Part shown: positions 6,351 to 51,258 of the stretch, piece by piece | Layout of the letters: every line of letters begins with the position of its first letter | How positions within the stretch are numbered: position 1 is the first letter of the stretch | Assembly: GCA_026395965.1 (NCBI GenBank) | Contig: JAPLXS010000006.1 | Span: 118,683 to 182,682, forward strand | Direction of reading: 5' to 3' | Source: Candidatus Nomurabacteria bacterium | GTDB taxonomy: Bacteria > Patescibacteriota > Minisyncoccia > Phycocordibacterales > UBA9973 | DNA length: 64,000 nt | Position numbers and translations under genes: made by a program | Notes under the pieces: model-generated | What the model was told of the DNA's origin: nothing | The model's database searches: none | What the model saw: the letters and a program-made list of their open reading frames with translations, nothing else

Positions 6351-6355
6351 TTTTA

Positions 6356-6901: not shown

Positions 6902-7003
6902 GGGTATATTGTATCATTCATAACCTAGTGAGCAAGGCTTCGCCACCACCTCTCTTTGTATTTAAACCTAGAAAAAATGCTTTAAAAATGGTAATATATT
7001 TCC

Positions 7004-7831: not shown

Positions 7832-7835
7832 AAAT

Positions 7836-9086
7836 ATGGAACCCATAATTACAGTTAAAAATATTGGAAAGAAATACAATATAAACCATCAAAAAGGTGG
7901 ATATATAACTCTTCGAGATATCATAACCAATGCATTTAAAAATCCTTTTTCATTTTTAAAAACAAAAACTAAAAATATTTTAGGAATAGAAACAAAAGAA
8001 ATATTTTGGGCTTTAAAAGACGTAAATTTTGAAGTTATGAAAGGTGAAGTTATCGGAATAATAGGACGCAACGGTGCAGGTAAATCCACCTTACTTAAAA
8101 TACTTTCACAAATTACACCTCCTACTACTGGAGAGATACGAATCAATGGTACAGTTGGAAGTCTACTTGAAGTAGGTACTGGTTTTCATCCAGAACTTAC
8201 AGGTAGAGAGAATATTTTCCTAAATGGAGCAATTCTTGGAATGAAGAAAAAAGATATCGCTAAAAAATTTGATGAAATTGTTAAATTCGCAGATATAGAA
8301 AAGTTCCTAGATACTCCTGTTAAATACTACTCTAGCGGAATGTACGTTCGTCTCGCCTTCTCTGTAGCAGCCCATATGGATACAGATATTTTAATAATTG
8401 ATGAAGTCCTCGCTGTTGGAGATGCAGAATTTCAAAAAAAGTGTTTGGGTAAGATGGAAGATATTACACAAAAAGAAGGTAGAACTATCCTTTTTGTTAG
8501 TCATGATATTAAAGCCATAAAACAACTTTGCAATAAAACAATACAGATTGGGAATGGTCAGATTATTAATTTTGGAGAAACTGAAAATGTTGTAGAAAAA
8601 TACCTATCTATATCAAATGATATTACCTTAGAAAAATGGGAAAATAATAAAAATGAATTTAATAATGATTATTTTAAACCAGAAAAATTTTATATATCAA
8701 AAGAAAAAAATGATGAATTATCTATTAACTTAGAGGCAATAATAGATAAAATTGATAATTCTTTAACTGTCGGATATGCTTTATATTCAGAAGACAATAC
8801 GCTACTTTATTGGTCATATCAAATAGATGGAGATAATACCGATATACCAAAATTACAAATAGGTAGAAACATTATCAAATCAATAATACCTGTAGAAATA
8901 TTAAATAATGGTAGATATACAATAGAACTTATTGGCGGAATACACAACAAAGAATGGTTATTTGAACCAAATAAAGGAAACCCTACATTAACAATAGAGA
9001 TAGATAGAAAATTCAATACTTCGCATCTGTGGACAAAAAAAAGACCTGGATTATTAGCACCAACAATTAACTGGAAAAATAAATAA
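7836..9086 (+). CDS. polysaccharide ABC exporter ATP-binding protein (Wzt/TagH-like) with extra C-terminal domain
   Basis: Walker A GRNGAGKST, signature YSSGMYVRLAF and Walker B ILIIDE. A ~160-aa C-terminal extension resembles Wzt carbohydrate-binding domains. Confidence 0.85.
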   Translation: MEPIITVKNIGKKYNINHQKGGYITLRDIITNAFKNPFSFLKTKTKNILGIETKEIFWALKDVNFEVMKGEVIGIIGRNGAGKSTLLKILSQITPPTTGEIRINGTVGSLLEVGTGFHPELTGRENIFLNGAILGMKKKDIAKKFDEIVKFADIEKFLDTPVKYYSSGMYVRLAFSVAAHMDTDILIIDEVLAVGDAEFQKKCLGKMEDITQKEGRTILFVSHDIKAIKQLCNKTIQIGNGQIINFGETENVVEKYLSISNDITLEKWENNKNEFNNDYFKPEKFYISKEKNDELSINLEAIIDKIDNSLTVGYALYSEDNTLLYWSYQIDGDNTDIPKLQIGRNIIKSIIPVEILNNGRYTIELIGGIHNKEWLFEPNKGNPTLTIEIDRKFNTSHLWTKKRPGLLAPTINWKNK

Positions 9087-9087
9087 T

Positions 9088-10551: not shown

Positions 10552-10555
10552 TTTT

Positions 10556-11371
10556 ATGCAAACAAGAATTTCAGTTATAATACCTACATACAATGGAGCC
10601 AAAACACTTGAAGCAGTTATAAAAAGTTGTCTTAAACAAACATTACAACCAATTGAGATACTTGTATGTGACGATGGATCTACAGATGAAAGCAAAATAA
10701 TAGTAGAACGAATAAATGACAATCGTGTTATTTGGGTCCCCTCTCAACATAGTGGAACTCCAGCCGTACCTAGAAATAATGGTATGAAAATAAGCAAAGG
10801 AGAATGGATTGCTTTTTGTGATAGTGACGATGAATGGCTACCCACAAAACTAGAAAAACAAATAAATTTAGCAATAAAATTAAAACTCAAAGCTGCGTGT
10901 ACAAGTGCTCTTATAAAAATAAACGGTAACATTAAAAATGAATTGGTTTCTAATTGGAATAAGGAGAATATTACATTTAGTAATATTCTAAAAAGTAATG
11001 ATATTGTATGTAGTTCAGTTATTATTCATAAATCAATAATCAATAACATTGGTGAATTTTCTACAGAAATTAAAAATAGAAGTTTCGCTGATTATATATA
11101 CTGGCTAAGAGTACTAACAGAAACTAATTTTGCCTTTGTGGTTGAACCACTCGTTATATATGACGACCACCCTGAAACTAGCATACGAAATGATAGGATA
11201 TCAGATAAAGAACTACAAGAGACATCATTTAATGATTTAATATCCTGGATGAAGAAAGATAAAAAAAACAAACTTAAAATTTTATATTTTAAGATACAAA
11301 TCTATCTATACAAAGTAAAACAAAAAAATATTAACATGATTAAAAATCATGTTAAATTAATAATAAAATGA
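10556..11371 (+). CDS. family 2 glycosyltransferase
   Basis: ISVIIPTYNGAKTL ... CDDGSTDES (GT-A DXD region). I chose the start at MQTRISV to avoid overlap with the upstream gene. Confidence 0.75.
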   Translation: MQTRISVIIPTYNGAKTLEAVIKSCLKQTLQPIEILVCDDGSTDESKIIVERINDNRVIWVPSQHSGTPAVPRNNGMKISKGEWIAFCDSDDEWLPTKLEKQINLAIKLKLKAACTSALIKINGNIKNELVSNWNKENITFSNILKSNDIVCSSVIIHKSIINNIGEFSTEIKNRSFADYIYWLRVLTETNFAFVVEPLVIYDDHPETSIRNDRISDKELQETSFNDLISWMKKDKKNKLKILYFKIQIYLYKVKQKNINMIKNHVKLIIK

Positions 11372-12951
11372 AAATAGGAATCTTATACATTTGCACGGGT
11401 AAATATACTATCTTTTGGAAAGATTTCTATTTGAGTATGGAAAAGAATTTTATAGAGGATTCCGAAAAACATTATTTTGTTTTTACTGATAGTAATGATA
11501 TTGATTTTGAAAATGAAAATCCTCGTATTCATAGAATACACCAAAATGATTTAGGCTGGCCATATAATACACTAAAGCGTTTCCATATATTTCTAGAACA
11601 TGAAAAAGAGTTAGTAAATATGGATTATTTATTCTTTTTTAATGCCAATTTATTTGTTTTAGAAAAAATTAATTCTAAAGAATTTTTACCTATAGATAAA
11701 GAAAATTTAGTTGCAACATTACACCCTGGATTTTATGATAAAGAAAAGATTAAATTTACATATGACCGAAATACCAAATCAACCGCATATATACCAAAAG
11801 GTTATGGGGATTCCTATTTTGCTGGTGGTTTGAATGGTGGTAAAACTATCAAATTCATAGAGGCAATGAAAATAATACGTGACAATGTAGATATTGATAA
11901 TAAAAAAAATGTTATTGCCCTATGGCACGATGAATCACATTGGAATAAATATTTAATAGAAAGATCAGATGTCAAAATACTAACACCTTCATACTTATAT
12001 CCTGAAGGTTGGACCCTACCCTTTAAACCTATAATACTTATTCGTGACAAAAATAAATATGGTGGACACAATTTATTGCGAAATAGTAAAAATACTTTTT
12101 ATAATATATTAATAAATGCACTTAGAAATATATTTTCTAAAATTGTAAAAAAAATTCCTAATTTATGGATACTTTTTATATATCACAAAACAAAAAGCAT
12201 AATCGAAACACAAGGAATAAAAATTGAAAAAACTCCTTTGTTAATAATAACTATAGCTTTCAATAATATTGAAATACTAAAAACACAATATATTTATATA
12301 AAAAATAATTTACAAGATGATTTCATATATATGATTGCTGATAATTCATCAGTACAAAATATATCTAATGAAATAAAAAAATATTGTAAAGACAACAAAA
12401 TTCCATATGTTAAACTCCCACCTAATCCATACAATAATCCGAGTAAATCACACGGGATGGCGTTAAATTGGACATATAAAAATATAGTAAAAACATACGA
12501 GCCTGTTTTATTTGGTTTCATAGACCATGATATATTCCCCTATCAAAAAACTTCTATAATATCCAGCATAAATAGTGGAATTTTCGGCCTCATTCAAGTA
12601 CGAAATGAAAAATGGTATTTATGGCCTGGATTTTGTTTTTATAAATATATAGGATTGAAAACAATTAAAATAAACTTTATGCCTAAAAAAGGACTAGATA
12701 CGGGTGGGGCAAATTATTACACACTTTATAAAAATATAAACAAAGATTTATTGATAAAAATACCACAAATATATATAGATATAAATACAAATACAGAAGT
12801 AAAAGGTATCAATGACACAAACACAGCAAATACAGTAGAGTGTATTGGTGACTGGCTTCACCTAATGAGAGTTTCAAACTGGAATAATAAAAATAATAAT
12901 AAAATTCATTCAGTTGAAGAAATTATATCCAAAGTTAAAAAAATACTTTAA
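11368..12951 (+). CDS. two-domain glycosyltransferase (GT6-like N-domain plus GT-A-like C-domain)
   Basis: The N-domain has KIGILYICTGKY...HYFVFTD and ALWHDESHWNKYL, which resemble family-6 glycosyltransferases. The C-domain has FIDHD. Confidence 0.55.
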   Translation: MKIGILYICTGKYTIFWKDFYLSMEKNFIEDSEKHYFVFTDSNDIDFENENPRIHRIHQNDLGWPYNTLKRFHIFLEHEKELVNMDYLFFFNANLFVLEKINSKEFLPIDKENLVATLHPGFYDKEKIKFTYDRNTKSTAYIPKGYGDSYFAGGLNGGKTIKFIEAMKIIRDNVDIDNKKNVIALWHDESHWNKYLIERSDVKILTPSYLYPEGWTLPFKPIILIRDKNKYGGHNLLRNSKNTFYNILINALRNIFSKIVKKIPNLWILFIYHKTKSIIETQGIKIEKTPLLIITIAFNNIEILKTQYIYIKNNLQDDFIYMIADNSSVQNISNEIKKYCKDNKIPYVKLPPNPYNNPSKSHGMALNWTYKNIVKTYEPVLFGFIDHDIFPYQKTSIISSINSGIFGLIQVRNEKWYLWPGFCFYKYIGLKTIKINFMPKKGLDTGGANYYTLYKNINKDLLIKIPQIYIDINTNTEVKGINDTNTANTVECIGDWLHLMRVSNWNNKNNNKIHSVEEIISKVKKIL

Positions 12952-38633: not shown

Positions 38634-40775
38634 TTATTTTCTTGATTCTATAATTGTAGTTGCAACGTTTTGAGGAACTATATCATAACGAGTAAATTCC
38701 ATAGTAAATGATGCTCTACCCTCTGTCATAGAACGGAGAGTTGTCATGTATCCAAACATTTCTGATAGAGGGACAATGGCTTTAACAGCTTGGTTCATAC
38801 CACGAGCTTCCATTCCTTCTATAAGTCCACGCTTTGATGACAGACTTCCTGTAACATCTCCCATGAATTTATCTGGAGTAACAACTTCAACTTTCATCAT
38901 AGGTTCCAAGATAACTGGGCGAGCCATTTTACATGCATCTTGCATAGCCATAGAAGCTGCGATTTTGAAAGCCATTTCGTTTGAGTCGACATCGTGGTAA
39001 CTTCCGTCCCATAGTTCAACTGATACGTTAACAATCTTAAATCCAGCAAGTACTCCGCGATCAAGACCTTCTTTGAATCCTTTTTCACAAGCAGGAATGT
39101 ATTCTTGTGGAATAGCTCCTCCTTTGATTGTATTGATAAATTCAAATCCTTTCTCTCTCTTTGTGTTTCTTGGTAGGTCTTCATCTTTGATAGACATATC
39201 CATTGGCTTGATCTTGATTTTAACGTGACCATAGTTTCCTCTTCCTCCTGATTGCTTGATGTATTTACCTTCTACACCAGCTTCACCAGTAATAGTTTCT
39301 CTGTATGCAACTTGAGGTTTACCAACATTTGTTTCAACAGAAAATTCACGCTTCATACGATCAACAATGATTTCAAGATGGAGTTCTCCCATTCCTGCAA
39401 TAATAGTTTCGTTTGTTTCAGCATCTGTAGTAACACGGAAAGTAGGATCTTCTTGTGCAAGACGAGATAATGCCATACCCATTTTTTCTTGGTCTGCTTT
39501 TGTTTTTGGTTCAACACGTAGAGAAATAACTGGTTCTGGGAATACAATACGGTAAAGTTCGATTGGGTGCTCTTCTTCACACATTGTGTCTGAAGTAATA
39601 GTATCTTTAAGACCAACCGCTGCTGCGATTTCTCCTGCATAAACTTTCTTTACTTCTTCACGATCGTTTGCGTGCATTCTCAAAATACGTCCAATACGTT
39701 CTTTGTTGCGAGTACGAGGGTTGTAAATATAACTTCCAGCAGAAAGACTACCTGAGTAAACTCTGAAGAAAATTATTTGTCCTACGAATGGGTCTGTGGC
39801 AACCTTGAAAGCAAGAGCTGAAAAAGGTTCTGCGTCTGAAGCCTTACGTTCAATAATTTCATCGGTATTTGGATCAATACCTCCGATAGGAGGAATATCT
39901 GTTGGACTTGGAAGGTAATCAATAACAGCATCAAGTACCAACTGAACTCCTTTATTTTTCAAAGCACTTCCTGCAAACACTGGGAAAATCTCGTTTGCTA
40001 TTACTCCCTTTCTCATTAATTTCTTTAGAGTCTCGTAATCAGGAACGATACCTTCAAAATACTCATTCATAGTTTTGTCGTCTTGTTCAACTATTTTTTC
40101 AATCAATTCTGCGTGGTATTTTTTGGCATCAGCCATCATATCTTCTGGAATTTCTTTTTCAATAACTCTTGAACCCATCTCTCCTTCAAAGTAATAAGCT
40201 TTCATCTTTAGAAGATCTACAACTCCATCGTGGTTTTCTTCAAGACCAATAGGAATCTGCATACGAATAGCCTTCTTTGTTAGGCGGTCTAAAATAGTAG
40301 CATATGAGTGTTCGAAAGATGCACCTGTTCTATCTAGTTTGTTTATAAAACAGATTCGTGGAACACTGGCTTCGTCGGCATAGCGCCAGTTTGTTTCTGA
40401 TTGAGGTTCTACTCCAGCAACTCCATCAAATACAACAACAGCTCCGTCTAGAACACGAAGAGAACGCTTTACTTCAACAGTAAAGTCGATGTGTCCTGGT
40501 GTATCGATAATATTGAAACGGTGTTTTTTTGTTTTGTCTGTAAGTGCGTATGTTGGAGTCCAAAAACAAGTAACAGCAGCAGAAGTAATAGTGATGCCTC
40601 TTTCTCTTTCTTGTTCCATCCAGTCTGTGGTAGTTTCCCCATCGTGAACTTCACCTATTTTGTGTGATACTCCTGTATAAAAAAGCACACGCTCTGTTGT
40701 AGTTGTTTTACCCGCATCGATGTGGGCAATGATTCCTATATTTCTAACTTTTTCTAACGGATAATCTCTTTCCAT
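38634..40775 (-). CDS. fusA: elongation factor G
   Basis: G domain ([21 protein letters not shown]) and full-length EF-G conservation. Confidence 0.95.
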
Positions 40776-41033
40776 GTTTATATATATAATTAATAAAAAT
40801 AAAACCTGCCTGCCGAAAGTCAGGTTTACCCACTCATATGTAGGCGACGATTAAGTCTTTTGTCCTCTGAATATACAACAAAAAAAGTAAATTTGCAACA
40901 AAAAATCCCTCATATTTTGTATGAGGGATTTTTTAATTTAGATTTGAATTTATTATCAAGAAAGTGAGGGACTCCGACTATAAAGCTTTATTTCATAAAG
41001 CTAAGACCTATATGCTCCACTTTGCACTGGCAT

Positions 41034-41062
41034 AAAAAAAATCCCCAGATGGGGATTTTTTT
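41034..41062 (-). terminator. hairpin plus T-tract directly after rpsG
   Basis: aaaaaaaatccccagatggggatttttttt. Confidence 0.6.
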
Positions 41063-41533
41063 CTACCAAGCAAAGTGAGCAAACGCCTTGTTTGATTCTG
41101 CCATTTTGTGAGTATCATCACGCTTCTTAACAGCAGTTCCTTCGTTTTTAGATGCAAGTATTAGTTCTTCAGCAAGCTTTTCGTGGATTGGAGCTCCCTT
41201 TTTACCGCGAGCAGCTAGTATTATCCATCTCATTGCTAATGCAGTACGTCTTTCAGGTCTAACTTCACGAGGAACCTGGTAGTTTGCACCACCGATACGA
41301 CGAGAACGAACTTCAACCATAGGACCAGCATTTTTGATAGCTGTATCAAACACTTCTAGAGGATTTGGATTACCTGTCTTTTCTTTGATTATTTCAAAAG
41401 CTTTGTAAACAGCTTTACGAGCTGTCTCCTTCTTTCCGTGTACCATGATATTGTTAATAAACTTCGCAAGTTTTTGAGAGTTATAAACTATATCTGGTTC
41501 TACTATATTTCTGTTTGTTATTTTTCTTCGCAT
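41063..41533 (-). CDS. rpsG: 30S ribosomal protein S7
   Basis: Canonical S7 sequence (IMVHGKKETARK...). Confidence 0.95.
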   Translation of the reverse strand: MRRKITNRNIVEPDIVYNSQKLAKFINNIMVHGKKETARKAVYKAFEIIKEKTGNPNPLEVFDTAIKNAGPMVEVRSRRIGGANYQVPREVRPERRTALAMRWIILAARGKKGAPIHEKLAEELILASKNEGTAVKKRDDTHKMAESNKAFAHFAW

Positions 41534-41545
41534 ATTATTTAGGAA

Positions 41546-41971
41546 TTATTTTTTTACAGCTGCTTTAGGTGTCTTTGTACCATATAGACTTCTGGATTGA
41601 CGACGCTTTTCAACTCCTGTTGTATCAAGACGACCACGAACTATGTGGTAACGTACTCCGATCAAGTCTTTAACACGTCCTCCGCGAATCATAACAACTG
41701 AGTGTTCTTGTAGGTTGTGACCTTCTCCTGGAATATAAGCAGTAACTTCCATTCCATTTGTTAGACGAACACGAGCTATCTTACGAAGAGCTGAGTTAGG
41801 TTTCTTTGGAGTAGTTGTTGATACTTTAGTACAAACACCACGCTTAAATGGAGCAGGATAAAATACTGGCTTATTTTTAATAGAATTAAAACCGCGAGCA
41901 AGAGCTACGGCCTTTGACTTTCTTTTTATTATTTTACGGTTCTTTCGAACCAATTGATTGATTGTAGGCAT
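41546..41971 (-). CDS. rpsL: 30S ribosomal protein S12
   Basis: [13 protein letters not shown] is a canonical S12 N-terminus. I placed the start at this internal Met of the longer ORF. Confidence 0.95.
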
Positions 41972-42081
41972 AATTAAACAAAAATAGTCGTAAATGACTA
42001 GTGACACTACTTTACTATAACAGAAACAAAAAAGCAAGCCCTACAAAAAGGATACTCTTTGAATACTTGAGTAATCCACCC

Positions 42082-43833
42082 TTATGACAATGGGCTTTTG
42101 TTATAACCATCTGTATTATATATTTTAAACTTATTATTTATATAACCTTTGGTTATTTTAATAGGATTTGAAGTATACACAACACTGTAAGTTCCATCTG
42201 CATTTATATTTTCTACCCTTACATAATAATCTCCGTTTGGTACCAAGCAATAATATTTGCCAGATTTATTTGCAACATTTTTTGCTATTTCGTGATCTAG
42301 CCAAACAGAATAAACTTTCATGACTCCAAATGATACTGGTTTGCCATTTCTCTTGTTTGTAACATAACCCAAAGGACTAGGATCAAAAATAAAATCTTTT
42401 AATATAAACAATAAAACATATAGACCGAAAATTATTAGATTGTATATATTATCTGAAACTAGAACTGATACAGATGACAACGCAAACCCAGAATAAAAGA
42501 CTACAATCAAAATATGATACATTATTAAATCAAAAGTAGAATAGAATTTCTTTGTTTTTGGATCTTGTTTTTTAGATTCATCCATATCAAATACAACTGG
42601 ATCAATAGGAATATTTCTTTTAACAATCTCCCCTTCTTTGATTGTTACCAATTCACTTCTATATATATTTATATACAACTCGTCGTCTATATTTTCTTTT
42701 ATTTTTTGTGATGGGAATTGATAATTATTTTTAATAACTATTATTTTGTATTTACCTTCAGGAACCATAAATCCATAACGTCCATCAATATCTGTAATAG
42801 CTGTTGCAATATTGTTGCCTTGTAAATCTTGCAAAACAACTTTTGCCATATCAATAGGTAATTTTGTAACACTACTGTAAACAACTCCCCATGGATGATT
42901 TCTCTTTAAAATAATAAAAGCCAAGAGCCATAAAATCAAAAGATAAATAATTATAGAAAATATTTTTAACAATGAAGAAAGTTTGGTGTGTAATACAGGA
43001 AACAAAGAAAGATAACTTGTTTCTGTTATTATTTTGGTTACGAAACCACTGGTTTTCGATTGAAATATTTCAGGTGGATTAATATTATTTAAAACAGGTT
43101 CAACAGTGGTAGTATCTATACTTGGAATTGTTTTTGGAACAACAGGAAGTACCGGGTAAGTAACTGGTGGGTTGGTTGGATTACAATCTGAACCTATACA
43201 TGACGAAGGCAAGCAAGTAGGATCGGTTGGATGAAGAACACAGAAAGATATACTTCCCCCATTGTTGTCGGGTGGAGTTACTACCACAACATCTGAACCA
43301 GGACGCCAGTCTGTAGTAACACAATAGCTAGGACTTGAGCAGTCAAATTTTATCCAACCATTGTTTTGACTCCAAGCATACCCGTTGAATTGACCTAAAT
43401 TATTTATAACAACAGGTGTTGCGGAGCTATTTGAAAATGGACCAAAATTCACCCATCCTGAAGTCTGCCCCCATGCGTATCCAGATAACTGACCACTAGT
43501 ATTGTTTGCGACTTTAAAATTGCCATTTATACTACCACAACCACTTGTTGTATTTGAGCAGTTTAGAACCACCCAACCGAAAGACGCTCCCCAGATATAA
43601 CCAGAAAGAGAATCGCTAGTAACATGAACATTTGATGCAGGATTATTTGTAAAATAACCAAAATTTATAGGTGAAGTAACAGTGACTAAACATGCCGCTG
43701 TCTCACACACCTGAGCAGTGTGATTTGTACTATCTATCGTACCGTTTGTAGTGGATGCTCTAACTTGAAACGACCCCAACAAAAGTATCGAAAGGAAAAT
43801 ATATTTAAGATATTTTTTATAGTTTATTTGCAT
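42082..43833 (-). CDS. secreted Cys-rich polytopic membrane protein with GYxWG...GWxxF repeats and two carboxypeptidase-regulatory-like beta-sandwich segments
   Basis: Signal peptide, three SGYAWGxxxGWVNF-type repeats, many Cys, three internal TM helices, and DIDGRYGFMVPEGKYKIIV / KSGKYYCLVPNGDYYVRV motifs. Confidence 0.5.
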   Translation of the reverse strand: MQINYKKYLKYIFLSILLLGSFQVRASTTNGTIDSTNHTAQVCETAACLVTVTSPINFGYFTNNPASNVHVTSDSLSGYIWGASFGWVVLNCSNTTSGCGSINGNFKVANNTSGQLSGYAWGQTSGWVNFGPFSNSSATPVVINNLGQFNGYAWSQNNGWIKFDCSSPSYCVTTDWRPGSDVVVVTPPDNNGGSISFCVLHPTDPTCLPSSCIGSDCNPTNPPVTYPVLPVVPKTIPSIDTTTVEPVLNNINPPEIFQSKTSGFVTKIITETSYLSLFPVLHTKLSSLLKIFSIIIYLLILWLLAFIILKRNHPWGVVYSSVTKLPIDMAKVVLQDLQGNNIATAITDIDGRYGFMVPEGKYKIIVIKNNYQFPSQKIKENIDDELYINIYRSELVTIKEGEIVKRNIPIDPVVFDMDESKKQDPKTKKFYSTFDLIMYHILIVVFYSGFALSSVSVLVSDNIYNLIIFGLYVLLFILKDFIFDPSPLGYVTNKRNGKPVSFGVMKVYSVWLDHEIAKNVANKSGKYYCLVPNGDYYVRVENINADGTYSVVYTSNPIKITKGYINNKFKIYNTDGYNKSPLS

Positions 43834-43856
43834 TAAATATATTATTTACTAAATAT

Positions 43857-46800
43857 TTATAAAACTGGCAGAGCAGGAGTTTCAGTAGTATCTGCTGGTG
43901 GTGGAACTACGGCAGCAGGAGTTTCTACTGCTGGTGGTACTACTTCGACAGGAGGAATATTTGTATCCCCAGGAACGACAACTGAAGCGTCAACAGGAGG
44001 TGTATCTGAAGTTGTTGTATCTGTTATTGATGTTGCACCTGTTGTTGCAGATGAGCCTGATGTTGATGGAATTAATTGTTTTAATTTAATAAGATCAGTC
44101 TTGTTGATACACTCATACGAACCATCTGGGTCAGTAAGACAAATCTCTCCAGTAAAGATGCGAGTTATCTTATTTGCCGCATTAGATAACCATGCAAAGA
44201 GACTATCTCTCCATGTATTTTGTATAGTCATATCAGCTATTCCTGTTATTTTTAGATTCATCTCTCTTATCGCTTCTACTATGATAGGTGTCATCTGCGC
44301 GTAGTACACGGACTTGTACCCTTGTGAATCTGTTGCTACGAGTTGAGGAAAATATTGCTCCAAATCTTGAGCGAGGAATCCAACTTGTTGTGGAGATGCT
44401 GGATTTTCCAACCAGTTATAAGTAACTGTTTTTACTTTCAACAAGTTATCTAAAGTATTATCAGATAGATTTATAATATTTGTCTTTAGTCTTTCATCTG
44501 AAGTACAAGCGATACCTGTACCAGTAGTGATAGTACACTGAGTAGAAGAAGAGCCATTTATACGAGTAGTATTTATCGGTCTATTGGCAGAACCTACTAT
44601 AAACTGATTTGCGGCTGTATTGGTTGCGTATGCACCTATTGCTATACTGTTTGAAAAGCTTCCTGCGCTCGTGGCATGACCAATTAGGATAGAAGTATCG
44701 GCGAATGTAGTAGTGTCATTGTATACAGCTGTATTGTTGACTGTATTATTGTATCCTGAATTTCTACCAATAAATATTGAGTTGGCAGCATTTGTAGCAT
44801 TGTACCCTGCACTACTTCCAAAGAAATTTGAGTTAATAGCGTTAGCTGCACCATACCCTGACAATAAACCAAAAAAGTTTGAGTTATTGGCTGAAGTAGC
44901 ACCACTTCCGGAATTTTTTCCAAAGAAGTTTGAATATGAAGCAGTAGTTGCACCACTTCCTGCATTCGGACCAAAGAAGTTTGAGTTAATAGCTGAGGTT
45001 GCATTATACCCTGTAGCTCCTCCAAAGAAATTAGAGTTGTTAGCTGAGGTTGCACCATATCCTGAAAGTGCCCCAAAGAAATTAGAAGAAAAAGCACTAG
45101 TTGCATTTTGTCCGGCGCCGTTTCCCATAAAGATGGTACCATTAGCAGATGCTGTACCTTGGTTGCCACCAATAAAAATTGAGTTGATCTGTCTGTTAAC
45201 AGAACCTACCATAAACTGATTTGCGGCTGTATTGGTTGCGTATGCACCTATTGCAATACTGTTTGAGTACCCTCCTGTACCAGTACCATGGCCTAGGAGG
45301 ATTGAAGTATTGGCAAAAGTAGTTACATCGTCATATACAGAAGTATTAACAACGGTATCATTTAAGCCTGAATTTGTACCTATAAATATTGAGTTGGCTG
45401 CACTAGTTGCACTATGTCCTGCATCTGTTCCAAAGAAATTTGAATAAGCAGCAGAACCAGCTTGATTTCCTGCGTTTAATCCGAAGAAGTTTGAGTTGTT
45501 AGCGGAATTAGCACTACTTCCTGCATATGATCCAAAGAAATTTGAATCATGGGCATTGACAGAACTACTTCCTGCACTTGTTCCAAAGAAGCTTGATTGA
45601 TTCGCATAAGTTGCACCATTTCCTGCATTAGAACCAAAGAAATTTGAATTCGAAGCACCGGTTGCTAGTACTCCTGTATTAACTCCAAAGAAGTTTGATG
45701 CATAAGCACCAGTAGCACCCCATCCCGCCCAATACCCGAAAAAGTTTGAGCTATTAGCATTGGTTGCATTTATTCCCGATTTTACACCAAAGAAGTTTGA
45801 GCCATAGGCACTAGTTGCTGATAATCCCGCATCAGCACCAAAGAAGTTTGATGCACTAGCACCAGTAGCAAGCTTTCCTGCATTAGAACCAAAGAAGTTT
45901 GAACTATTAGAACTGGTTGCACCATATCCTGCACTATGACCAAAGAAGTTTGAGTTATTTGCACTGGTTGCACCATTTCCTGCATCTGTACCAAAGAAGT
46001 TTGAATATGGAGCAGAACTAGCATGATACCCCGCAAGATAACCAAAGAAGTTGGAAGCATCAGAATTTGTGGCTCCGTCACCTGCATTTGATCCAAAAAA
46101 GTTTGAGCTATTAGCATTGGTTGCGCCATTTCCTGCATATGATCCAAAGAAATTTGAACCACTTGCATTGGTTGCACTATTCCCTGCATTAATTCCAAAG
46201 AAGTTTGAAACATTGGCAAGAGAAGCATTAAGTCCTGCATTAACTCCAAAGAAGTTTGAATTAGATGCGCCAGTTGCACCACTTCCTGCATCTGTTCCAA
46301 AGAAGTTTGAATTATCTGCACTAGTTGCATTTTTACCCGCACTATTACCCATAAAGATTGTATTTTGAACAGATGCTGTGCCTTGATTGCCTCCAATAAA
46401 AATTGAGTTAATTGGTCTGTTAGCAGAACCTACCATAAACTGATTGGAATATGTATTGGTTGTATACGCACCTAATGCAATACTATTTGAGTACCCTCCA
46501 GTGCTAGTACTATGACCAATGAGGATGGAGGTGTCGGCGAAGGTAGTAGTCTCATTGTACAATGCAGTATTGTTTACAAGATCATTATTACCTGAATTAG
46601 TACCTATAAATATTGAGTTGGCAGCATTGGTTGCAGAATAACCCGCAGAAGAACCAAAGAAATTTGAATTAAATGCAAAAGTAGCTGTGCTTCCTGCACT
46701 TGGTCCAAAGAAGTTTGACGCAAGGGCATTTGTTGCGTTTGTTCCCGCAGAAGAACCGAAGAAATTTGAGCTACTGGCCTCAGTTGCACCATGACCTGAA

Positions 46801-49493
46801 TCTGTTCCAAAGAAGTTTGAGCCATTTGCATTTGTGGCACCATCACCTGCATTTGCTCCAAAGAAATTAGAATAATAAGCATTATAAGCATTGAGTCCTG
46901 AGCTTGATCCAAAGAAGTTGGAGTTATTTGCAGCAGTTGCATTTTCACCTGCACTTACGCCAAAAAAGTTTGAGGCAGTGGCGACAGTTGCATTTCTTCC
47001 TGCACTTAATCCAAAGAAGTTTGATTGGTTAGATAAACTTGCTCCATCTCCGGCATAACTTCCAAAAAAGTTTGAGTTGTTGGCATCAGTTGCATTTTGA
47101 CCAGAAAATGTACCAAAGAAGTTTGAGCTGTAAGCATTAGTTGCACTTATTCCTGAAAAATTTCCAAAGAAGTTTGAATTATTGGCACCACTAGCATTTT
47201 GACCAGAAAATGTACCAAAGAAGTTTGAGTGGTCGGCTGCATTTGCACCGTCACCTGCATTTTGTCCAAAGAAGTTAGAGTTATTGGCAGCAGTTGCATT
47301 TAGTCCAGAATTAAGTCCTAAAAAGTTTGAATAAGAAGCATCGGTAGCACTAAGTCCTGCATTCGCTCCCGAGAAGTTTGAATCATTTGCTTTTGTTGCA
47401 CCGTTTCCTGCACTTGGTCCAAAGAAGTTGGATGAGTAAGCTGAATTTGCACCTAAACCTGTGCTTGATCCAAAGAAATTTGAGTTGTTGGCACTAGTTG
47501 CACCATTTCCTGCGTCTGTACCAAAGAAGTTTGAGTTTGAGGCGGAAGCTGCATTCAATCCTGCGTTATTTCCCATAAAGATTGTACCAATTACTGATGC
47601 TGTGCCTTTGTTTCCGCCAATAAAAATAGAATTTATAGGTCTGTTATCAGAACCTACCACAAACTGATTGGGTGCTGTGTTGGTTGAGTATGCACCTATT
47701 GCAATACTATTTGAGAAACCACCAGTATTTGTATTGTGACCAAGGAGAATGGATGTATCAGCGAAGGTGGTAGTATCATCATACACTGCAGTATTGTTTA
47801 CTGTATCATTGTATCCTGAATTTTTACCAATAAATATTGAATTGGCGGCATTGATTGCATGATTTCCCGCATAATAACCAAAGAAATTTGAATCATAAGA
47901 ATTGTTTAAATTATTGGAATCTCCTCTTCCTGCATTTGATCCAAAAAAGTTTGAATTAGAAGCATTATTAGAATAAATTCCTGAGGAAGGTCCAAAGAAG
48001 TTTGAACTACTAGCACCATTTGCACTATTACCTGCACTATACCCAAAGAAGTTTGAGTAAGTAGAATTTATAGCTCCATATCCTGCTGTTTGTCCAAAAA
48101 AGTTTGAATAAGATGCACCTTCAGCAATTTTACCAGCTCTATCTCCAAAAAAATTTGAACCATCAAGACCTAAAATTCCCTCCCCAGCACTTCTACCAAA
48201 AAGGTTTGAACTAATTATATTTACTCCACCATTACCTGCATCTCTTCCAAAGAAGTTAGATTCGTAAGCATATATAGCTCCTAGGCCAGCACCTTCTCCA
48301 AAAAAATTTGAGTTGTAAGCACCAATTCCACCGCTTCCTGCATTTAGTCCAAAGAAGTTTGAACTTGTAGCATCAGTTGCATTCAATCCTGCGTTTGTTC
48401 CAAAGAAGTTTGAGTTAGCTGCGTTAGTAGCACTACTTCCTGCGCTTGTTCCAAAGAAATTGGAGTTAGCAGCAGCAGTTGCACTATTACCTGCGCTTGG
48501 TCCAAAGAAATTGGAGCTATTAGCACCAGTTGCACCAAACCCTGAATTGTCTCCAAAGAAGTTTGAATTATCTGCATTAGTTGCACCACTTCCTGCACTT
48601 AATCCAAAGAAATTTGATTTAGCAGCATTGGTTGCACCATCTCCTGCATTTGATCCAAAGAAGTTGGAACTACTCGCATTGGTTGCATTTGATCCAGATG
48701 CATAGCCTAAGAAGTTTGAGAAGGAGGCAGAAGCTGCATTCAATCCCGCATTTGTTCCAAAGAAGTTTGAATTAGAGGCGCCAGTGGCACCACTTCCAGC
48801 ATTATTTCCAAAGAAGTTTGACGAGAAGGCATTGGTTCCATTCAACCCAGCTCCATAACCTAAGAAGTTTGAATTATCAGCATTGGTCGCACCACTTCCT
48901 GCATTTTTTCCAAAGAAGTTTGAGTAAGTAGCAGACGAGCTTGATCCTGAGCCTGTTAGTCCTGTAGAAAAAAGTGATGTGGTGTTTTGTACTGTAATAG
49001 GTGAAGACACTACTGTCCCCCATGCTATATCTGTACCGTTGGTAGTGAGAAATTGACCCGCAATACCAGAGACAGATGGGATAACAACTTTCCAATCTGA
49101 AGATAAAGTAAGACAACGATTTTGATTGGCATCCAAAGAAGAGTCAGTGACAGTTGTTGTACAAGCTGGGTACCCTCCGCGGTTTGTAACTAGACGATAA
49201 GTTGCTGTCTGATTTCCTGCTGTGCCAGAGTCGGTATCTATAACAGTTGCTATCATTCCTAGAGATCTTCTTTCACTTGTGATAGCAAGTAGAGCTGTCA
49301 TATCTGCTACTTGCATGTGTCCTCCTTGGAGGTAGTTTGTATCAGCGATAGCAAAGTAACCGTTCCCTACTCCGAGAGTAGTAGGTACAGCTAGACCTCC
49401 GTTTTGAGAATAAGCTCGATATGAAAATGAACCAACCATAAGTAGGACGGTTGTAATAAAAAATATTTTTGTTTTAAGGTCTATTATTTTCAT
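43857..49493 (-). CDS. giant (1878 aa) secreted tail-fibre-like repeat protein with C-terminal Peptidase_S74 intramolecular chaperone domain
   Basis: Signal peptide. N-terminal fibre-like motif GQFLTTNGTDIAWGTV. More than 90 tandem 15-aa repeats (SNFFGxxAGxGATxA). Four higher-order ~100-aa modules (SIFIG.NSG...FADTSIL.GH...NQF.VGS.NRPINSIFIGGN). TSDERLKTNI...YNW...GF.AQDLEQ..P.LV matches the S74 autoproteolytic chaperone. A Pro/Thr/Val-rich tail follows. Confidence 0.7.
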   Translation of the reverse strand: MKIIDLKTKIFFITTVLLMVGSFSYRAYSQNGGLAVPTTLGVGNGYFAIADTNYLQGGHMQVADMTALLAITSERRSLGMIATVIDTDSGTAGNQTATYRLVTNRGGYPACTTTVTDSSLDANQNRCLTLSSDWKVVIPSVSGIAGQFLTTNGTDIAWGTVVSSPITVQNTTSLFSTGLTGSGSSSSATYSNFFGKNAGSGATNADNSNFLGYGAGLNGTNAFSSNFFGNNAGSGATGASNSNFFGTNAGLNAASASFSNFLGYASGSNATNASSSNFFGSNAGDGATNAAKSNFFGLSAGSGATNADNSNFFGDNSGFGATGANSSNFFGPSAGNSATAAANSNFFGTSAGSSATNAANSNFFGTNAGLNATDATSSNFFGLNAGSGGIGAYNSNFFGEGAGLGAIYAYESNFFGRDAGNGGVNIISSNLFGRSAGEGILGLDGSNFFGDRAGKIAEGASYSNFFGQTAGYGAINSTYSNFFGYSAGNSANGASSSNFFGPSSGIYSNNASNSNFFGSNAGRGDSNNLNNSYDSNFFGYYAGNHAINAANSIFIGKNSGYNDTVNNTAVYDDTTTFADTSILLGHNTNTGGFSNSIAIGAYSTNTAPNQFVVGSDNRPINSIFIGGNKGTASVIGTIFMGNNAGLNAASASNSNFFGTDAGNGATSANNSNFFGSSTGLGANSAYSSNFFGPSAGNGATKANDSNFSGANAGLSATDASYSNFLGLNSGLNATAANNSNFFGQNAGDGANAADHSNFFGTFSGQNASGANNSNFFGNFSGISATNAYSSNFFGTFSGQNATDANNSNFFGSYAGDGASLSNQSNFFGLSAGRNATVATASNFFGVSAGENATAANNSNFFGSSSGLNAYNAYYSNFFGANAGDGATNANGSNFFGTDSGHGATEASSSNFFGSSAGTNATNALASNFFGPSAGSTATFAFNSNFFGSSAGYSATNAANSIFIGTNSGNNDLVNNTALYNETTTFADTSILIGHSTSTGGYSNSIALGAYTTNTYSNQFMVGSANRPINSIFIGGNQGTASVQNTIFMGNSAGKNATSADNSNFFGTDAGSGATGASNSNFFGVNAGLNASLANVSNFFGINAGNSATNASGSNFFGSYAGNGATNANSSNFFGSNAGDGATNSDASNFFGYLAGYHASSAPYSNFFGTDAGNGATSANNSNFFGHSAGYGATSSNSSNFFGSNAGKLATGASASNFFGADAGLSATSAYGSNFFGVKSGINATNANSSNFFGYWAGWGATGAYASNFFGVNTGVLATGASNSNFFGSNAGNGATYANQSSFFGTSAGSSSVNAHDSNFFGSYAGSSANSANNSNFFGLNAGNQAGSAAYSNFFGTDAGHSATSAANSIFIGTNSGLNDTVVNTSVYDDVTTFANTSILLGHGTGTGGYSNSIAIGAYATNTAANQFMVGSVNRQINSIFIGGNQGTASANGTIFMGNGAGQNATSAFSSNFFGALSGYGATSANNSNFFGGATGYNATSAINSNFFGPNAGSGATTASYSNFFGKNSGSGATSANNSNFFGLLSGYGAANAINSNFFGSSAGYNATNAANSIFIGRNSGYNNTVNNTAVYNDTTTFADTSILIGHATSAGSFSNSIAIGAYATNTAANQFIVGSANRPINTTRINGSSSTQCTITTGTGIACTSDERLKTNIINLSDNTLDNLLKVKTVTYNWLENPASPQQVGFLAQDLEQYFPQLVATDSQGYKSVYYAQMTPIIVEAIREMNLKITGIADMTIQNTWRDSLFAWLSNAANKITRIFTGEICLTDPDGSYECINKTDLIKLKQLIPSTSGSSATTGATSITDTTTSDTPPVDASVVVPGDTNIPPVEVVPPAVETPAAVVPPPADTTETPALPVL
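44700..48950. repeat. intragenic 45-bp tandem repeat region (ccaaagaagtttga... units) encoding SNFFG repeats
   Basis: The recurring motifs ccaaagaagtttgag / ccaaagaaatttga are visible throughout the giant gene. Confidence 0.75.
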
Positions 49494-49512: not shown

Positions 49513-50112
49513 CTATTTTATCGTGAACACAGATGAAACTCCTGTGTCTCTTGATCTATAAACATAATACTCTTGAGAGTCGTAAGACTGCACAGATCTA
49601 ACCATTACAGGATACGCTCCGATAGGTGTCATAAAACAAGTAGTATAGGTAGATGCGTCGTGACTGCACCCCTGCTCGGGTTCAAATGATTTTAGCCAAG
49701 CAAAGTAAATATACTCTGAACTTTTGGCATTGAATGATTGAGTACCTATAGAAGTTCTTGAAGTTCCGAAAACAGAGGAAACTGGTGTAAGGTTTGAAAA
49801 TTTGACTAGGGTTCCGTCGGGCTCTGCACTATAACCATAAAATACTTTTCCATTACCTTTTATTATTTTATTTATAGTGTCACTTTCTGTATTTTTTGTA
49901 TTTACATCTGTTGTTGTCTTCTCTCCAACACCAAGCAAAGTACCACTATTGATATTTAAATCTTTATTTTCAGCAAATGAAATATCTTGAATCTTTGTGT
50001 CTGGAGAATAATTTATTTTATATTTTTGATAAAAGAATATACACAAAACAATAATTATTGTAATTAGTATTATTATCTTTAAAAAATTTTTATCTTTCAT
50101 GTAATTTTTCAT
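49513..50112 (-). CDS. membrane-anchored secreted protein; paralogue of 50116..51258 (shared ~110-aa C-terminal Cys-pair domain)
   Basis: N-terminal TM anchor. The C-terminal domain (KVFYGYSAEPDGTLV...YIYFAWLKSF...GCSHD...CFMTPIGAY...YYVYRSRD) aligns with the neighbour. Confidence 0.5.
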   Translation of the reverse strand: MKNYMKDKNFLKIIILITIIIVLCIFFYQKYKINYSPDTKIQDISFAENKDLNINSGTLLGVGEKTTTDVNTKNTESDTINKIIKGNGKVFYGYSAEPDGTLVKFSNLTPVSSVFGTSRTSIGTQSFNAKSSEYIYFAWLKSFEPEQGCSHDASTYTTCFMTPIGAYPVMVRSVQSYDSQEYYVYRSRDTGVSSVFTIK

Positions 50113-50115: not shown

Positions 50116-51258
50116 TTATTGGATTGTATAGGTTGCACTTGGGTTAATATCGTATGATCTATAAACCCAGTAAAGAATACCATTTCTTGTCTGTTGCGTA
50201 CGAACAAAGTTTGAGACATATCCAAGTGGTGTAGAGAAACAATCGGCTGCTCCTAGCCCATCGTGCTTACAGATTGTACCGGCATCAAAAGCTTGAGGCC
50301 AAGCAAAGTAAATATAATTTCCACCAGAGAGATTAAATGTACGACTTGCAGGAATAGATGTTCTAGCTGTAGAACTAGCAAGAGCAACAGATGTAAGAGT
50401 ATTCAAGTCTACAAGTGTTCCGTCAGATTGTGTAGATGAACCATAAAATACTTTTGATCTATAAACCACAGTTGATGTAGCAGCGACAACATTTGGTGGG
50501 TTTACACCACTTGCAACAGAACCAGCTCCACTAGACTGAGTACAAGATCCGGCTGCTGCTTGGAGTGCGCTACAAGGATAAGCTGTAAATGAAAATGTAG
50601 CTGTGCCGTTTAGAGTATTGTATGCAGCTGAGTTTGCAATATAAACCAAAGTACCAGAACCACTAGCTGCCCCACCTGAAATAGTTGAAGGCTGAGGACC
50701 AGAAGAGTATGTTGCATTTGAAGGAGTCACAGAACTTGCTCCGTAAATATAGAAACTGTTTCCATCACTATCTGCGGGACTTTTAGATAGAGACCAACCC
50801 AAAGAAATGTTTGTTGAATCTCCAACTTCTCTGACTGTAGTGGTAGCTGTATTGGATGCAATAATATTGCCAGATGGAGCCACGTATACAAATAATAATT
50901 TCTTTATGAAATCGTGCATTGAGGTAGCAGATGTTGGAGTATGAGTAGCTCCATTTGCGAGTGTAATTCCTGTAACACTTTTGTTCAGAAGATCAGAAAA
51001 ATCACTTTCCCATGATACGCCACCAACTCCGTTGGAAACAAGATTTTGATTTAGAATACCACCAGATGGAAAAATACTAACAAAACAATTTGGATCTCCT
51101 GGTGCACAAGCTGGGTCTAAAGTTTCTCCAGGTCCATAAGGACTTCCAGTCGCAAAGATTTTAAAGTATGCACCAAAAAGTATAACAATGAGAATTATGG
51201 CTACAAATTTTGGCCAGTGTTTAGATATAAAATTAAAATAGATGGAATCTCTTTTCAT
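50116..51258 (-). CDS. membrane-anchored secreted protein with S/T/A/G-rich spacer; paralogue of 49513..50112
   Basis: N-terminal TM anchor. The C-terminal domain (KVFYGSSTQSDGTLV...YIYFAWPQAF...CKHD...CFSTPLGY...YWVYRSYD) is shared. Confidence 0.5.
   Translation of the reverse strand: MKRDSIYFNFISKHWPKFVAIILIVILFGAYFKIFATGSPYGPGETLDPACAPGDPNCFVSIFPSGGILNQNLVSNGVGGVSWESDFSDLLNKSVTGITLANGATHTPTSATSMHDFIKKLLFVYVAPSGNIIASNTATTTVREVGDSTNISLGWSLSKSPADSDGNSFYIYGASSVTPSNATYSSGPQPSTISGGAASGSGTLVYIANSAAYNTLNGTATFSFTAYPCSALQAAAGSCTQSSGAGSVASGVNPPNVVAATSTVVYRSKVFYGSSTQSDGTLVDLNTLTSVALASSTARTSIPASRTFNLSGGNYIYFAWPQAFDAGTICKHDGLGAADCFSTPLGYVSNFVRTQQTRNGILYWVYRSYDINPSATYTIQ

What the first reader, a model, noticed from the sequence alone, without database searches (positions are those of the whole stretch)
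43857..49493. Architecture of the giant protein: 15-aa SNFFG repeats nested in four ~370-aa super-repeats, S74 chaperone, then a Pro/Thr-rich tail
At DNA level the gene is a 45-bp tandem repeat with units such as ccaaagaagtttgagtt. It encodes N-S-N-F-F-G-x-x-A-G-x-x-A-T-x-A units. Four higher-order modules recur: SIFIG.NSG.ND.V.NT.VY.D.TTFADTSIL.GH.T.TGG.SNSIA.GAY.TNT..NQF.VGS.NRPINSIFIGGN.GTAS. The fourth runs directly into CTSDERLKTNI...VTYNW...VGFLAQDLEQYFPQLV, the S74 autoproteolysis motif. Unusually, about 120 residues of Pro/Thr/Val-rich sequence follow the S74 domain, which normally forms the extreme C-terminus and is released after cleavage. Repeat number is likely to vary between strains through recombination or slippage, and the repeats are a hazard for assembly collapse.
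Basis: seen in the sequence. Interest (0 to 1): 0.75.

Follow-up and report, generated by a model that had tools for sequence, protein, structure and literature searches.

The report
Patescibacteria surface fibre with self-cleaving chaperone
This 1,878-residue gene of an ultra-small (Patescibacteria) bacterium most likely encodes a long, probably trimeric cell-surface fibre built from 63 copies of a 17-residue repeat and ending in the self-cleaving folding domain of phage tail fibres; it belongs to a large family with no functional study, and could be how these bacteria, whose cultivated members live attached to hosts, grip other cells.

Summary
The ORF (43857-49493, minus strand, 1,878 aa) is real and the S74 call is right: PF13884 matches at E=3.7e-15, the Ser1665/Lys1670 dyad is invariant, and the fold matches MyRF, endosialidase and GA-1 chaperones. 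Two numbers are wrong. The repeat is 51 bp/17 aa, not 45/15. The four spacer modules recur at 408, 408 and 204 aa, not about 370. The setting is a Nomurabacteria/Paceibacterota (CPR) chromosome, not a phage: the gene has a signal peptide and sits in conserved synteny just upstream of rpsL-rpsG-fusA. About 124 residues do lie beyond a phage-type chaperone. The first ~55 are a conserved Cys-hairpin extension and only the last 69 are Pro/Thr/Val-rich. This is the family norm (median 216 aa after the serine; 214 here). The repeats are old (64% nt identity between units, longest exact repeat 44 bp), so assembly collapse or slippage is unlikely. Syntenic orthologues nonetheless carry only about 4-10 units against 63 here. 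The family is large (4,720 cluster representatives) and shares its cassette with uncultivated phages. Best reading: a secreted, probably trimeric β-solenoid fibre matured by S74 autocleavage, analogous to Bdellovibrio MAT fibres, possibly an adhesin. It is a new variant of a known kind, of moderate interest.

The parts
49404..49493 (-). aa 1-30: N-terminal signal peptide / hydrophobic segment (MKIIDLKTKIFFITTVLLMVGSFSYRAYS|Q)
   Evidence: This is the only TM-like hydropathy window in the protein (aa 3-21). The A-Y-S|Q site fits the -3/-1 rule by inspection. No signal-peptide predictor was available.
49089..49403 (-). aa 31-135: N-terminal domain (FAIADTNYLQGGHMQV...RRSLGM..TV.D...TYRLV; Cys111/Cys127), presumed cell-proximal
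   Evidence: It is shared only with P0005 and with the L084 protein, which carries a different repeat body. It has no Pfam or PHROG hit. The AF2 model failed at pLDDT 30.
48924..49088 (-). aa 136-190: junction segment (DWKVVIP...GQFLTTNGTDIAWG...ITVQNTTSLFSTGL) leading into the repeats
   Evidence: It recurs at several positions in P0005, P0029 and P0022.
47841..48923 (-). aa 191-551: SNFFG block 1, 21 units of 17 aa (one unit of 21 aa)
47535..47840 (-). aa 552-653: spacer module 1 (102 aa = 6x17; SIFIG..SILLG..SIAIG..QFVVGSDNRPIN..SIFIGG..TIFMG)
46617..47534 (-). aa 654-959: SNFFG block 2, 18 units
46311..46616 (-). aa 960-1061: spacer module 2
   Evidence: 77% aa identity to module 1
45393..46310 (-). 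aa 1062-1367: SNFFG block 3, 18 units
45087..45392 (-). aa 1368-1469: spacer module 3
44781..45086 (-). aa 1470-1571: SNFFG block 4, 6 units
   Evidence: The AF2 model gives pLDDT 94-97 for these units.
44502..44780 (-). aa 1572-1664: module 4 plus the pre-cleavage tip (…QFIVGSANRPINTTRINGSSSTQC1653TITTGTGIAC1663T), the predicted mature C-terminal tip
   Evidence: C1653 and C1663 are invariant in alignment A1. Three β-strands are predicted just before Ser1665.
44232..44501 (-). aa 1665-1754: S74 intramolecular chaperone/autoprotease core; catalytic Ser1665 and Lys1670 (SDERLK)
   Evidence: PF13884 matches at E=3.7e-15. S, D, E and K are invariant. Foldseek finds MyRF ICA 7dc3, endosialidase 3gw6 and GA-1 3gud at probability 0.85-1.0. 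35 PHROG families match, most of the 25 listed being tail-fibre or baseplate families, down to E=7e-22.
44067..44231 (-). aa 1755-1809: conserved extension (NTWRDSLFAWLSNAANKITRIFTGEIC1785LTDPDGSYEC1795INKTDLIKLKQL): helix, Cys-Cys β-hairpin, helix
   Evidence: It is conserved across homologues and C1785/C1795 are invariant. AF2 gives pLDDT 60-72 with H291-301, E315-318/E324-327 and H329-338. It is also present in a Bdellovibrionales protein, L078.
43860..44066 (-). aa 1810-1878: Pro/Thr/Val-rich low-complexity tail, predicted disordered; no TM segment and no LPXTG motif
   Evidence: Composition; pLDDT 37-60 across this stretch, below 50 for residues 340-378 of the model (aa 1809-1847). Its sequence varies but it is present in most homologues.
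42082..43833 (-). Downstream neighbour (583 aa): signal peptide, GYxWGxxxGW repeats, Pro-rich linker, TM segments, CarboxypepD_reg domain. Possible partner; membership of the system is inferred only.
   Evidence: Pfam hits, sequence. A relative of its C-terminal half lies within 4 kb downstream on the same strand in 14 of 64 fibre loci.

Best explanation
The gene encodes a Sec-exported cell-surface fibre of a Nomurabacteria/Paceibacterota-type Patescibacteria (CPR) bacterium. After the signal peptide comes a rare N-terminal domain, presumed to sit next to the cell. The shaft that follows is about 1,470 residues long. It consists of four arrays (21, 18, 18 and 6 turns) of a 17-residue SNFFGxxAGxxATxAxx β-solenoid repeat. 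The arrays are separated by 102-residue modules that look like YadA-head-type repeats and end in a (V/I)GSxNRPIN loop. If the whole shaft is solenoid at about 4.8 Å per turn, it would be roughly 40 nm long (estimate). The C-terminal S74 intramolecular chaperone is expected to bring three chains into register and nucleate folding from the C-terminal end. It would then cleave itself off before Ser1665 using the Ser1665-Lys1670 dyad. That releases a 214-residue fragment made of the chaperone, the Cys-hairpin extension and the disordered Pro/Thr/Val tail, and exposes a disulfide-stapled tip (Cys1653/Cys1663). By analogy with phage tail fibres and Bdellovibrio MAT fibres, the mature fibre is most likely an adhesin used to contact other cells or surfaces. 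SHOWN: the architecture, S74 homology, conserved catalytic residues, solenoid prediction, chromosomal CPR context, family size and synteny. INFERRED: trimerisation, actual cleavage, surface retention through the N-terminus, and the adhesive role. The internal modules appear to be duplicated copies of the pre-chaperone tip segment, so the fibre grew by duplicating a 408-aa shaft-plus-tip cassette.
Confidence: 0.7

Rival explanations
1. It is a phage or prophage tail-fibre gene that happens to lie in the chromosome, and the S74 domain serves virion assembly, not the cell.
For: The S74 domain is typical of phage tail fibres and spikes. The SNFFG-plus-module cassette occurs in 109 IMG/VR contigs, one of which (L086) has a large terminase about 4 kb upstream. 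Some family members lack a signal peptide and have phage-like N-termini.
Against: The query has an N-terminal signal/hydrophobic segment. No neighbour matches a PHROG family, and the flanking genes are housekeeping genes. The locus between M50 and rpsL is syntenic in several Nomurabacteria/Paceibacterota MAGs. Most cellular homologues also carry signal peptides. There is no match in 50,697 cultured phage genomes.
Confidence: 0.05
2. The gene is an assembly artefact: a chimera, or a collapsed or expanded repeat, so the copy number and super-repeat structure are not real.
For: The gene is highly repetitive. The short-read Logan contig L001 ends inside it, and other homologues often lie at contig ends. 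The exact protein is not on record elsewhere.
Against: An uninterrupted 5.6-kb ORF keeps the 17-aa register across all blocks, with module spacings of 24, 24 and 12 x 17. Units share only 64% nt identity, super-repeats 68-71%, and the longest exact repeat is 44 bp, shorter than a read. L001 is 100% identical up to that 44-bp repeat and simply stops there. GC content is uniform at 0.39 across the gene. Family members of 2,000-4,500 aa are common.
Confidence: 0.05
3. It is a real S74-matured surface fibre but not a specific adhesin. It would form a structural coat or spacer layer (glycocalyx- or S-layer-like), or a flat Thr/Asn/Ala-faced solenoid that interacts with ice, minerals or polysaccharide matrix.
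Confidence: 0.2

Closest known systems
Bdellovibrio bacteriovorus MAT (mosaic adhesive trimer) fibres, S74 subgroup, e.g. Bd3182 (Caulton et al. 2024, PMC10769870)
   Same: Both are chromosomally encoded bacterial proteins with a signal peptide, an N-terminal cell-proximal domain, a long β-rich fibre and a C-terminal S74 domain with SDxxxK. In Bd3182 that domain self-cleaves to expose the tip. The S74 region is 34-45% identical to Bdellovibrio/Bdellovibrionales proteins, and one of them (L078) also shares the post-chaperone extension. A capping-loop-like VGSxxRPxxx motif precedes the chaperone.
   Different: No similarity was found outside the S74 region, and the N-terminal domains are unrelated. 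The shaft here is a 17-aa SNFFG solenoid predicted to fold as a single chain, not the intertwined 'meandering' trimer described for MATs. The query carries an extra Pro/Thr/Val tail. The host is a Patescibacteria (CPR) bacterium, not a Gram-negative predator. No experimental data exist for this protein.
Phage tail fibres and tailspikes with a C-terminal intramolecular chaperone (K1F endosialidase 3GW6; T5 pb1 4UW8; GA-1 gp12 3GUD)
   Same: The S74/ICA domain is homologous by Pfam, PHROGs and fold. The expected logic is the same: C-terminal trimerisation, folding, then Ser-Lys autocleavage. The repeat-plus-module cassette also occurs in uncultivated phage contigs.
   Different: In phages the chaperone ends the protein; the T5 chaperone is 133 aa. 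Here 124 further residues follow. This protein has a signal peptide and a housekeeping chromosomal context. Cultured phages have no match to the repeats.
YadA-like heads of trimeric autotransporter adhesins (YadA 1P9H, BoaA 3S6L, BpaC 7O23, UspA1 3PR7, EibD 2XQH)
   Different: The repeat is 17 aa, against about 14 aa in YadA (the YadA figure is from my own knowledge). The query has no significant PF05658 hit and only E=0.49 to EibD. It has no YadA β-barrel membrane anchor, and trimerisation would come from an S74 chaperone instead. It is therefore not a TAA.
MYRF / MrfA membrane-bound transcription factors (ICA domain followed by further sequence)
   Same: This is the best Foldseek match (7dc3, E=1e-3, probability 1.0). 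Like the query, the ICA domain is not the extreme C-terminus (abstracts of PMC3742443 and PMC8326128).
   Different: In MYRF the sequence downstream of the ICA domain is a transmembrane anchor, and cleavage frees the N-terminal part. The query's downstream region has no TM segment.

Membership tests
Peptidase_S74 / intramolecular chaperone autoprocessing (ICA) domain | Pfam PF13884 match above the gathering threshold | tested here: met
   E=3.7e-15, 56.4 bits against a 22-bit cutoff, aa 1665-1719, profile positions 1-57 of 58.
Peptidase_S74 / intramolecular chaperone autoprocessing (ICA) domain | Catalytic Ser-Lys dyad in an S-D-x-x-x-K motif at the start of the domain | tested here: met
   S1665-D-E-R-L-K1670. 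S, D, E and K are invariant in the 21-sequence alignment A1. The motif is as defined in PMC10769870.
Peptidase_S74 / intramolecular chaperone autoprocessing (ICA) domain | ICA fold | tested here: met
Peptidase_S74 / intramolecular chaperone autoprocessing (ICA) domain | The domain forms the extreme C-terminus (phage archetype) | tested here: not met
   PHROG tail-fibre profiles end at about aa 1750-1754, and 124 more residues follow. This is the norm in this family, and MYRF also departs from the archetype.
Peptidase_S74 / intramolecular chaperone autoprocessing (ICA) domain | Trimer-dependent autoproteolysis | not testable with these tools
   This needs expression of wild type against S1665A, or a multimer model. 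Only monomer prediction was available.
Bdellovibrio MAT fibre family | Signal peptide followed by the conserved ~130-aa β-rich MAT N-terminal domain | tested here: inconclusive
   A signal-like N-terminus is present. BLASTP of the query against four Bdellovibrio/Bdellovibrionales S74 proteins aligns only aa ~1650-1808 and nothing N-terminal. Those four are not verified MAT members, and two are truncated at the N-terminus.
Bdellovibrio MAT fibre family | C-terminal S74 domain (S74 subgroup) on a long surface fibre | tested here: met
   Surface location is inferred, not shown.
Trimeric autotransporter adhesins (TAA) | C-terminal YadA-type β-barrel membrane anchor | tested here: not met
   A Pfam scan of the whole protein at E<=0.1 returns only PF13884. 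The C-terminus is S74 plus a disordered tail.
Trimeric autotransporter adhesins (TAA) | YadA_head / Hep_Hag repeats detectable by sequence | tested here: not met
   The query has no PF05658 hit. The profile of the module against PDB gives EibD at E=0.49. Homologue P0112 scores 24.9 bits, just under the 25-bit cutoff.
Trimeric autotransporter adhesins (TAA) | Left-handed parallel β-roll fold of the head repeats | tested here: inconclusive

The most novel reading that the evidence does not exclude
These S74-terminated SNFFG fibres are the host-recognition adhesins of Paceibacteria-type CPR bacteria. On this reading they form a multi-paralogue, cassette-swapping repertoire exchanged with the bacteria's own phages, parallel to Bdellovibrio MAT fibres. 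The conserved post-chaperone unit would be a new sorting or quality-control appendage specific to fibres assembled outside the cytoplasmic membrane. That unit comprises the Cys-hairpin extension, the disordered Pro/Thr-rich tail and, in many members, a terminal P-x-T/S-E-COOH. It would be discarded on cleavage.
Probability: 0.25. Interest if true: 0.7.

Novelty: new variant of a known kind. Interest (0 to 1): 0.45.

Why it matters
All cultivated Patescibacteria are episymbionts, and how they recognise and bind hosts is largely unknown beyond type IV pili (abstract of PMC11623550). Trimeric fibres matured by an S74 domain are the receptor-binding devices of many phages and of the predator Bdellovibrio (PMC10769870).

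This work shows a very large family of such fibres in Paceibacteria/Nomurabacteria genomes (4,720 cluster representatives). The family has several paralogues per genome, a conserved chromosomal locus and a cassette shared with uncultivated phages. Seven full-text searches found no paper describing it. It offers concrete candidates for host-attachment proteins in CPR bacteria and a testable processing site (T1664|S1665).

It also defines a 17-residue solenoid repeat with no significant sequence-detectable relative among solved structures, and an extended form of the S74 chaperone. For annotation, neither the 'tail fiber' nor the 'trimeric autotransporter adhesin' label describes these proteins correctly.

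Tried and rejected
1. Exact-sequence look-up of the protein found nothing on record.
2. NCBIfam gave no hit.
3. PDB sequence searches with the repeat region and with a module profile found nothing significant.
5. Strain-level copy-number comparison was not possible. The metagenome scan with the N-terminal domain returned one distant relative at 46% identity, on a contig that ends inside the gene. S7 look-ups gave only 1.2-4.1-kb contigs.
6. The N-terminal domain stayed unresolved. It has no Pfam or PHROG hit and the word-indexed search found no homologues.
7. The promoter/terminator scan found no more sites than shuffled sequence, so operon boundaries are undetermined.
8. tblastn of the repeats against cultured phages found no match; the low-complexity filter may contribute.
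9. A MYRF-like C-terminal membrane tether was considered and rejected, because there is no TM segment after the chaperone.
10. A sortase (LPXTG) anchor was considered and rejected, because the tail contains no such motif (sequence).
11. TAA membership was considered and rejected (see the membership test).
12. Literature searches linking Patescibacteria/CPR with S74, 'chaperone of endosialidase' or TAA found no relevant paper.
Full report
OBSERVATION. Tandem Repeats Finder reports arrays with periods of 51, 102 and 153 bp, never 45. At the protein level there are 63 units with the core S-N-F-F-G, and 58 of the 62 spacings between successive units are exactly 17 residues. The consensus is S-N-F-F-G-x-x-A-G-x-(G/N)-A-T-x-A-x-x, with S1, G5 and G9 invariant. 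The quoted DNA unit is real: CCAAAGAAGTTTGA occurs 26 times in the window, all inside this gene.

The units form four blocks of 21, 18, 18 and 6. The blocks are separated by a 102-residue module (SIFIG…SIL(L/I)G…SIA(I/L)G…QF(V/M/I)VGSxNRPIN…SIFIGG…TIFMG). The module occurs four times at 66-78% amino-acid identity. Modules recur every 408, 408 and 204 residues, which is 24, 24 and 12 x 17, so the whole shaft stays in a 17-residue register. The fourth module is truncated after NRPIN and runs, through 22 residues, into CTSDERLKTNI.

S74 DOMAIN. PF13884 matches residues 1665-1719 at E=3.7e-15. In an alignment of the query's last 409 residues with 20 homologues, Ser1665, Asp, Glu and Lys1670 (the SDxxxK dyad) are invariant. 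So are Cys1653/Cys1663 just before the cleavage site and Cys1785/Cys1795 after the chaperone. The AlphaFold2 model built on that alignment matches the MyRF ICA domain (7dc3, E=1e-3, probability 1.0). It also matches the K1F endosialidase chaperone (3gw6) and the GA-1 chaperone (3gud).

WHAT FOLLOWS THE CHAPERONE. Of the 25 PHROG families listed for the C-terminal segment, most are tail-fibre or baseplate families. Each aligns to the query only up to about aa 1750-1754, and each alignment stops 0-60 positions (most within 20) short of that profile's own C-terminal end. They are not uniformly Pro/Thr/Val-rich. Residues ~1755-1809 (NTWRDSLFAWLSNAANKITRIFTGEICLTDPDGSYECINKTDLIKLKQL) are conserved across the family and are predicted as helix, Cys-Cys β-hairpin and helix at pLDDT 60-72. 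Only residues 1810-1878 are low-complexity (T14, P13, V11, A8, S7) and are mostly predicted disordered (pLDDT 37-60). Nothing after the chaperone resembles a TM segment, and there is no LPXTG motif.

This layout is the rule in the family. In 72 proteins the distance from the catalytic Ser to the C-terminus has a median of 216 aa (IQR 202-235), and the query has 214. For comparison, T5 pb1 has 133 aa and Bdellovibrio Bd3182 has 141 aa. A Bdellovibrionales protein (L078) aligns through the extension but ends four residues later. The extension is therefore not CPR-specific, whereas the tail may be.

CONTEXT AND TAXONOMY. The window is a bacterial chromosome, not a phage. Ribosomal proteins S12 and S7 and EF-G lie immediately downstream, and an M50 peptidase, a metallo-β-lactamase-fold protein, SOD, ComEC, RecJ, FtsK and a MacB transporter lie nearby. 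EF-G is 87-93% identical to its closest relatives, and those that carry a name (87-91%) are Candidatus Nomurabacteria/Paceibacterota proteins.

The protein starts with the only TM-like segment it has, followed by an A-Y-S|Q site. Its six cysteines form three closely spaced pairs. Both features fit an exported protein.

The gene order MBL-M50-fibre-(583-aa membrane protein)-S12-S7-EF-G recurs in several Nomurabacteria/Paceibacterota MAGs (L011, L017, L039, L043, L034, L027). The orthologue at that locus is only 660-1,170 aa with about 4-10 SNFFG units. Repeat number therefore varies greatly between species. Strain-level variation could not be assessed.

IS IT AN ASSEMBLY ARTEFACT? This is unlikely. 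Units share on average 64% nucleotide identity, modules 70-77% and the 408-aa super-repeats 68%. The longest exact repeat in the gene is 44 bp. An independent Logan contig (SRR20698642) is 100% identical to window 40482-44628 and ends at that 44-bp repeat. That pattern is a k-mer graph break, not a collapse. The same divergence argues against frequent slippage.

THE FAMILY. The full protein retrieves 355 homologues. The named ones are 'tail fiber domain-containing protein' from Patescibacteria/Paceibacterota, or 'trimeric autotransporter adhesin' in JGI records. All keep the 17-aa period. A scan of reference genomes finds 174 relatives. Nearly all of the 80 listed are Patescibacteria MAGs, often with several per genome, and the more distant S74-only matches are in Bdellovibrio. 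A profile of two units plus the module hits 4,720 cluster representatives (E<=1e-3; 502 at E<=1e-30), with lengths up to 4,528 aa.

The same cassette is present in 109 IMG/VR contigs. One of them (L086) carries a large terminase about 4 kb upstream of a signal-less 669-aa SNFFG protein. Cultured phages have no match. The cassette is thus shared between CPR cells and uncultivated phages.

MECHANISM. The closest described system is the Bdellovibrio MAT fibre family. There, 13 of 21 surface fibres have a signal peptide, a conserved N-terminal cell-proximal domain and a C-terminal S74 domain with SDxxxK. Bd3182 cleaves itself at S782, and the S782A mutant does not (PMC10769870).

By analogy, I propose the following sequence. 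The protein is exported by Sec. The three chains trimerise and fold from the C-terminal chaperone. Autocleavage occurs before Ser1665, releasing a 214-aa fragment and exposing a Cys1653/Cys1663-stapled tip. The result is a fibre of roughly 40 nm (86 turns x 4.8 Å; estimate) held by its N-terminal domain. Trimerisation, cleavage, retention and adhesion are all inferred.

Each module ends in (V/I)GSxNRPIN, which fits the S74-associated capping-loop consensus V-G-G/N-π-x-x-P-x-x-x-L reported for MATs and MyRF. This suggests that the internal modules are duplicated 'tip' segments. On that view the fibre grew by duplicating a 408-aa shaft-plus-tip cassette, and only the last copy kept the chaperone.

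RIVALS. Three alternatives were considered: a prophage tail fibre (0.05), an assembly artefact (0.05) and a non-adhesive coat or ice-/matrix-binding solenoid (0.2). They are weighed in the rival-explanations section.

NOVELTY AND VERDICT. Seven full-text searches found no paper linking Patescibacteria/CPR with S74 fibres. The design principle is nevertheless known from phages and Bdellovibrio, and databases already label the family 'tail fiber domain-containing'. The new elements are the 17-residue SNFFG solenoid shaft, the extended chaperone with its disordered tail, the lineage and the conserved locus. I rate it a new variant of a known kind, interest 0.45.

Noticed in passing
window 50116-51258 (-) and 49513-50112 (-): The 380-aa gene two genes upstream carries the N-terminal module that most family members have on the fibre itself (HWPKF…LFGAY.KIFATGSPYGPGETLDPACAPGDPNC). 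BLASTP to the N-termini of about 40 homologues reaches E=3e-15. The giant protein has a different, rare N-terminal domain. The 199-aa gene between them shares the 380-aa protein's C-terminal domain (39% identity). This suggests a rearranged fibre locus, or a separate anchor subunit.
   Followed up: partly
window 42082-43833 (-); loci L011, L012, L014, L019-L021, L023, L024, L033, L034, L039, L043, L049, L057: The downstream 583-aa membrane protein has a signal peptide, GYxWGxxxGW repeats, a Pro-rich linker, TM segments and a CarboxypepD_reg domain. A relative of its C-terminal half lies within 4 kb downstream, on the same strand, of the S74 fibre gene in 14 of 64 loci. It may be an anchoring or assembly partner.
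   Followed up: partly
C-termini of homologues P0002-P0004, P0009-P0011, P0014, P0015, P0019, P0034, P0035, P0037, P0041, P0047, P0098, P0102, P0115 and others: About 30 of 72 family members end in …P-x-(T/S/V/I)-E-COOH (TE 14, IE 5, VE 4, SE 4). The query ends …TTETPALPVL instead. This may be a conserved C-terminal tag on the released fragment, or it may only reflect acidic tail composition.
   Followed up: no
L084 (JGI contig Ga0208872_1000054), about nt 9,880-11,826: The query's rare N-terminal domain (FAIADTNYLQGGHMQV…RRS.GM..TV.D…TYRL…DW..VIP) is joined there to a different repeat body (…SPDG(I/V)NWT…AYGNG(L/M)FVA(V/I)… repeats). The domain therefore behaves as an exchangeable cell-proximal module.
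   Followed up: partly
P0006: This homologue's gene call runs straight on into an EF-Tu GTP-binding domain (PF00009, E=2.7e-32). It is probably a missed stop or a gene-calling fusion. It shows that this fibre gene too lies directly beside a translation-factor gene.
   Followed up: no
window 44684-45172, 44713-45219, 45782-46396, 46051-46368, 46604-46954, 48460-48705: Six ORFs of 81-204 aa lie in other frames or on the other strand, entirely inside the giant gene. They are by-products of the repeat composition and should not be annotated as genes.
   Followed up: no
L090 (IMGVR_UViG_3300017917_002969), nt 80-11366: This 97-kb viral contig carries two adjacent SNFFG-repeat proteins (514 and 921 aa; 12 and 29 spacings of 17 aa) and a separate S74-containing ORF upstream. 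In some phages, therefore, the repeat shaft and the chaperone sit on different genes.
   Followed up: no
window 1-64000: GC content is 27-32% over much of the window but 33-39% from about 20 kb to 52 kb, with the fibre gene at 39%. The Gly/Ala/Ser/Asn-rich repeats raise GC locally. No tRNA or integrase check was made for an island boundary.
   Followed up: no
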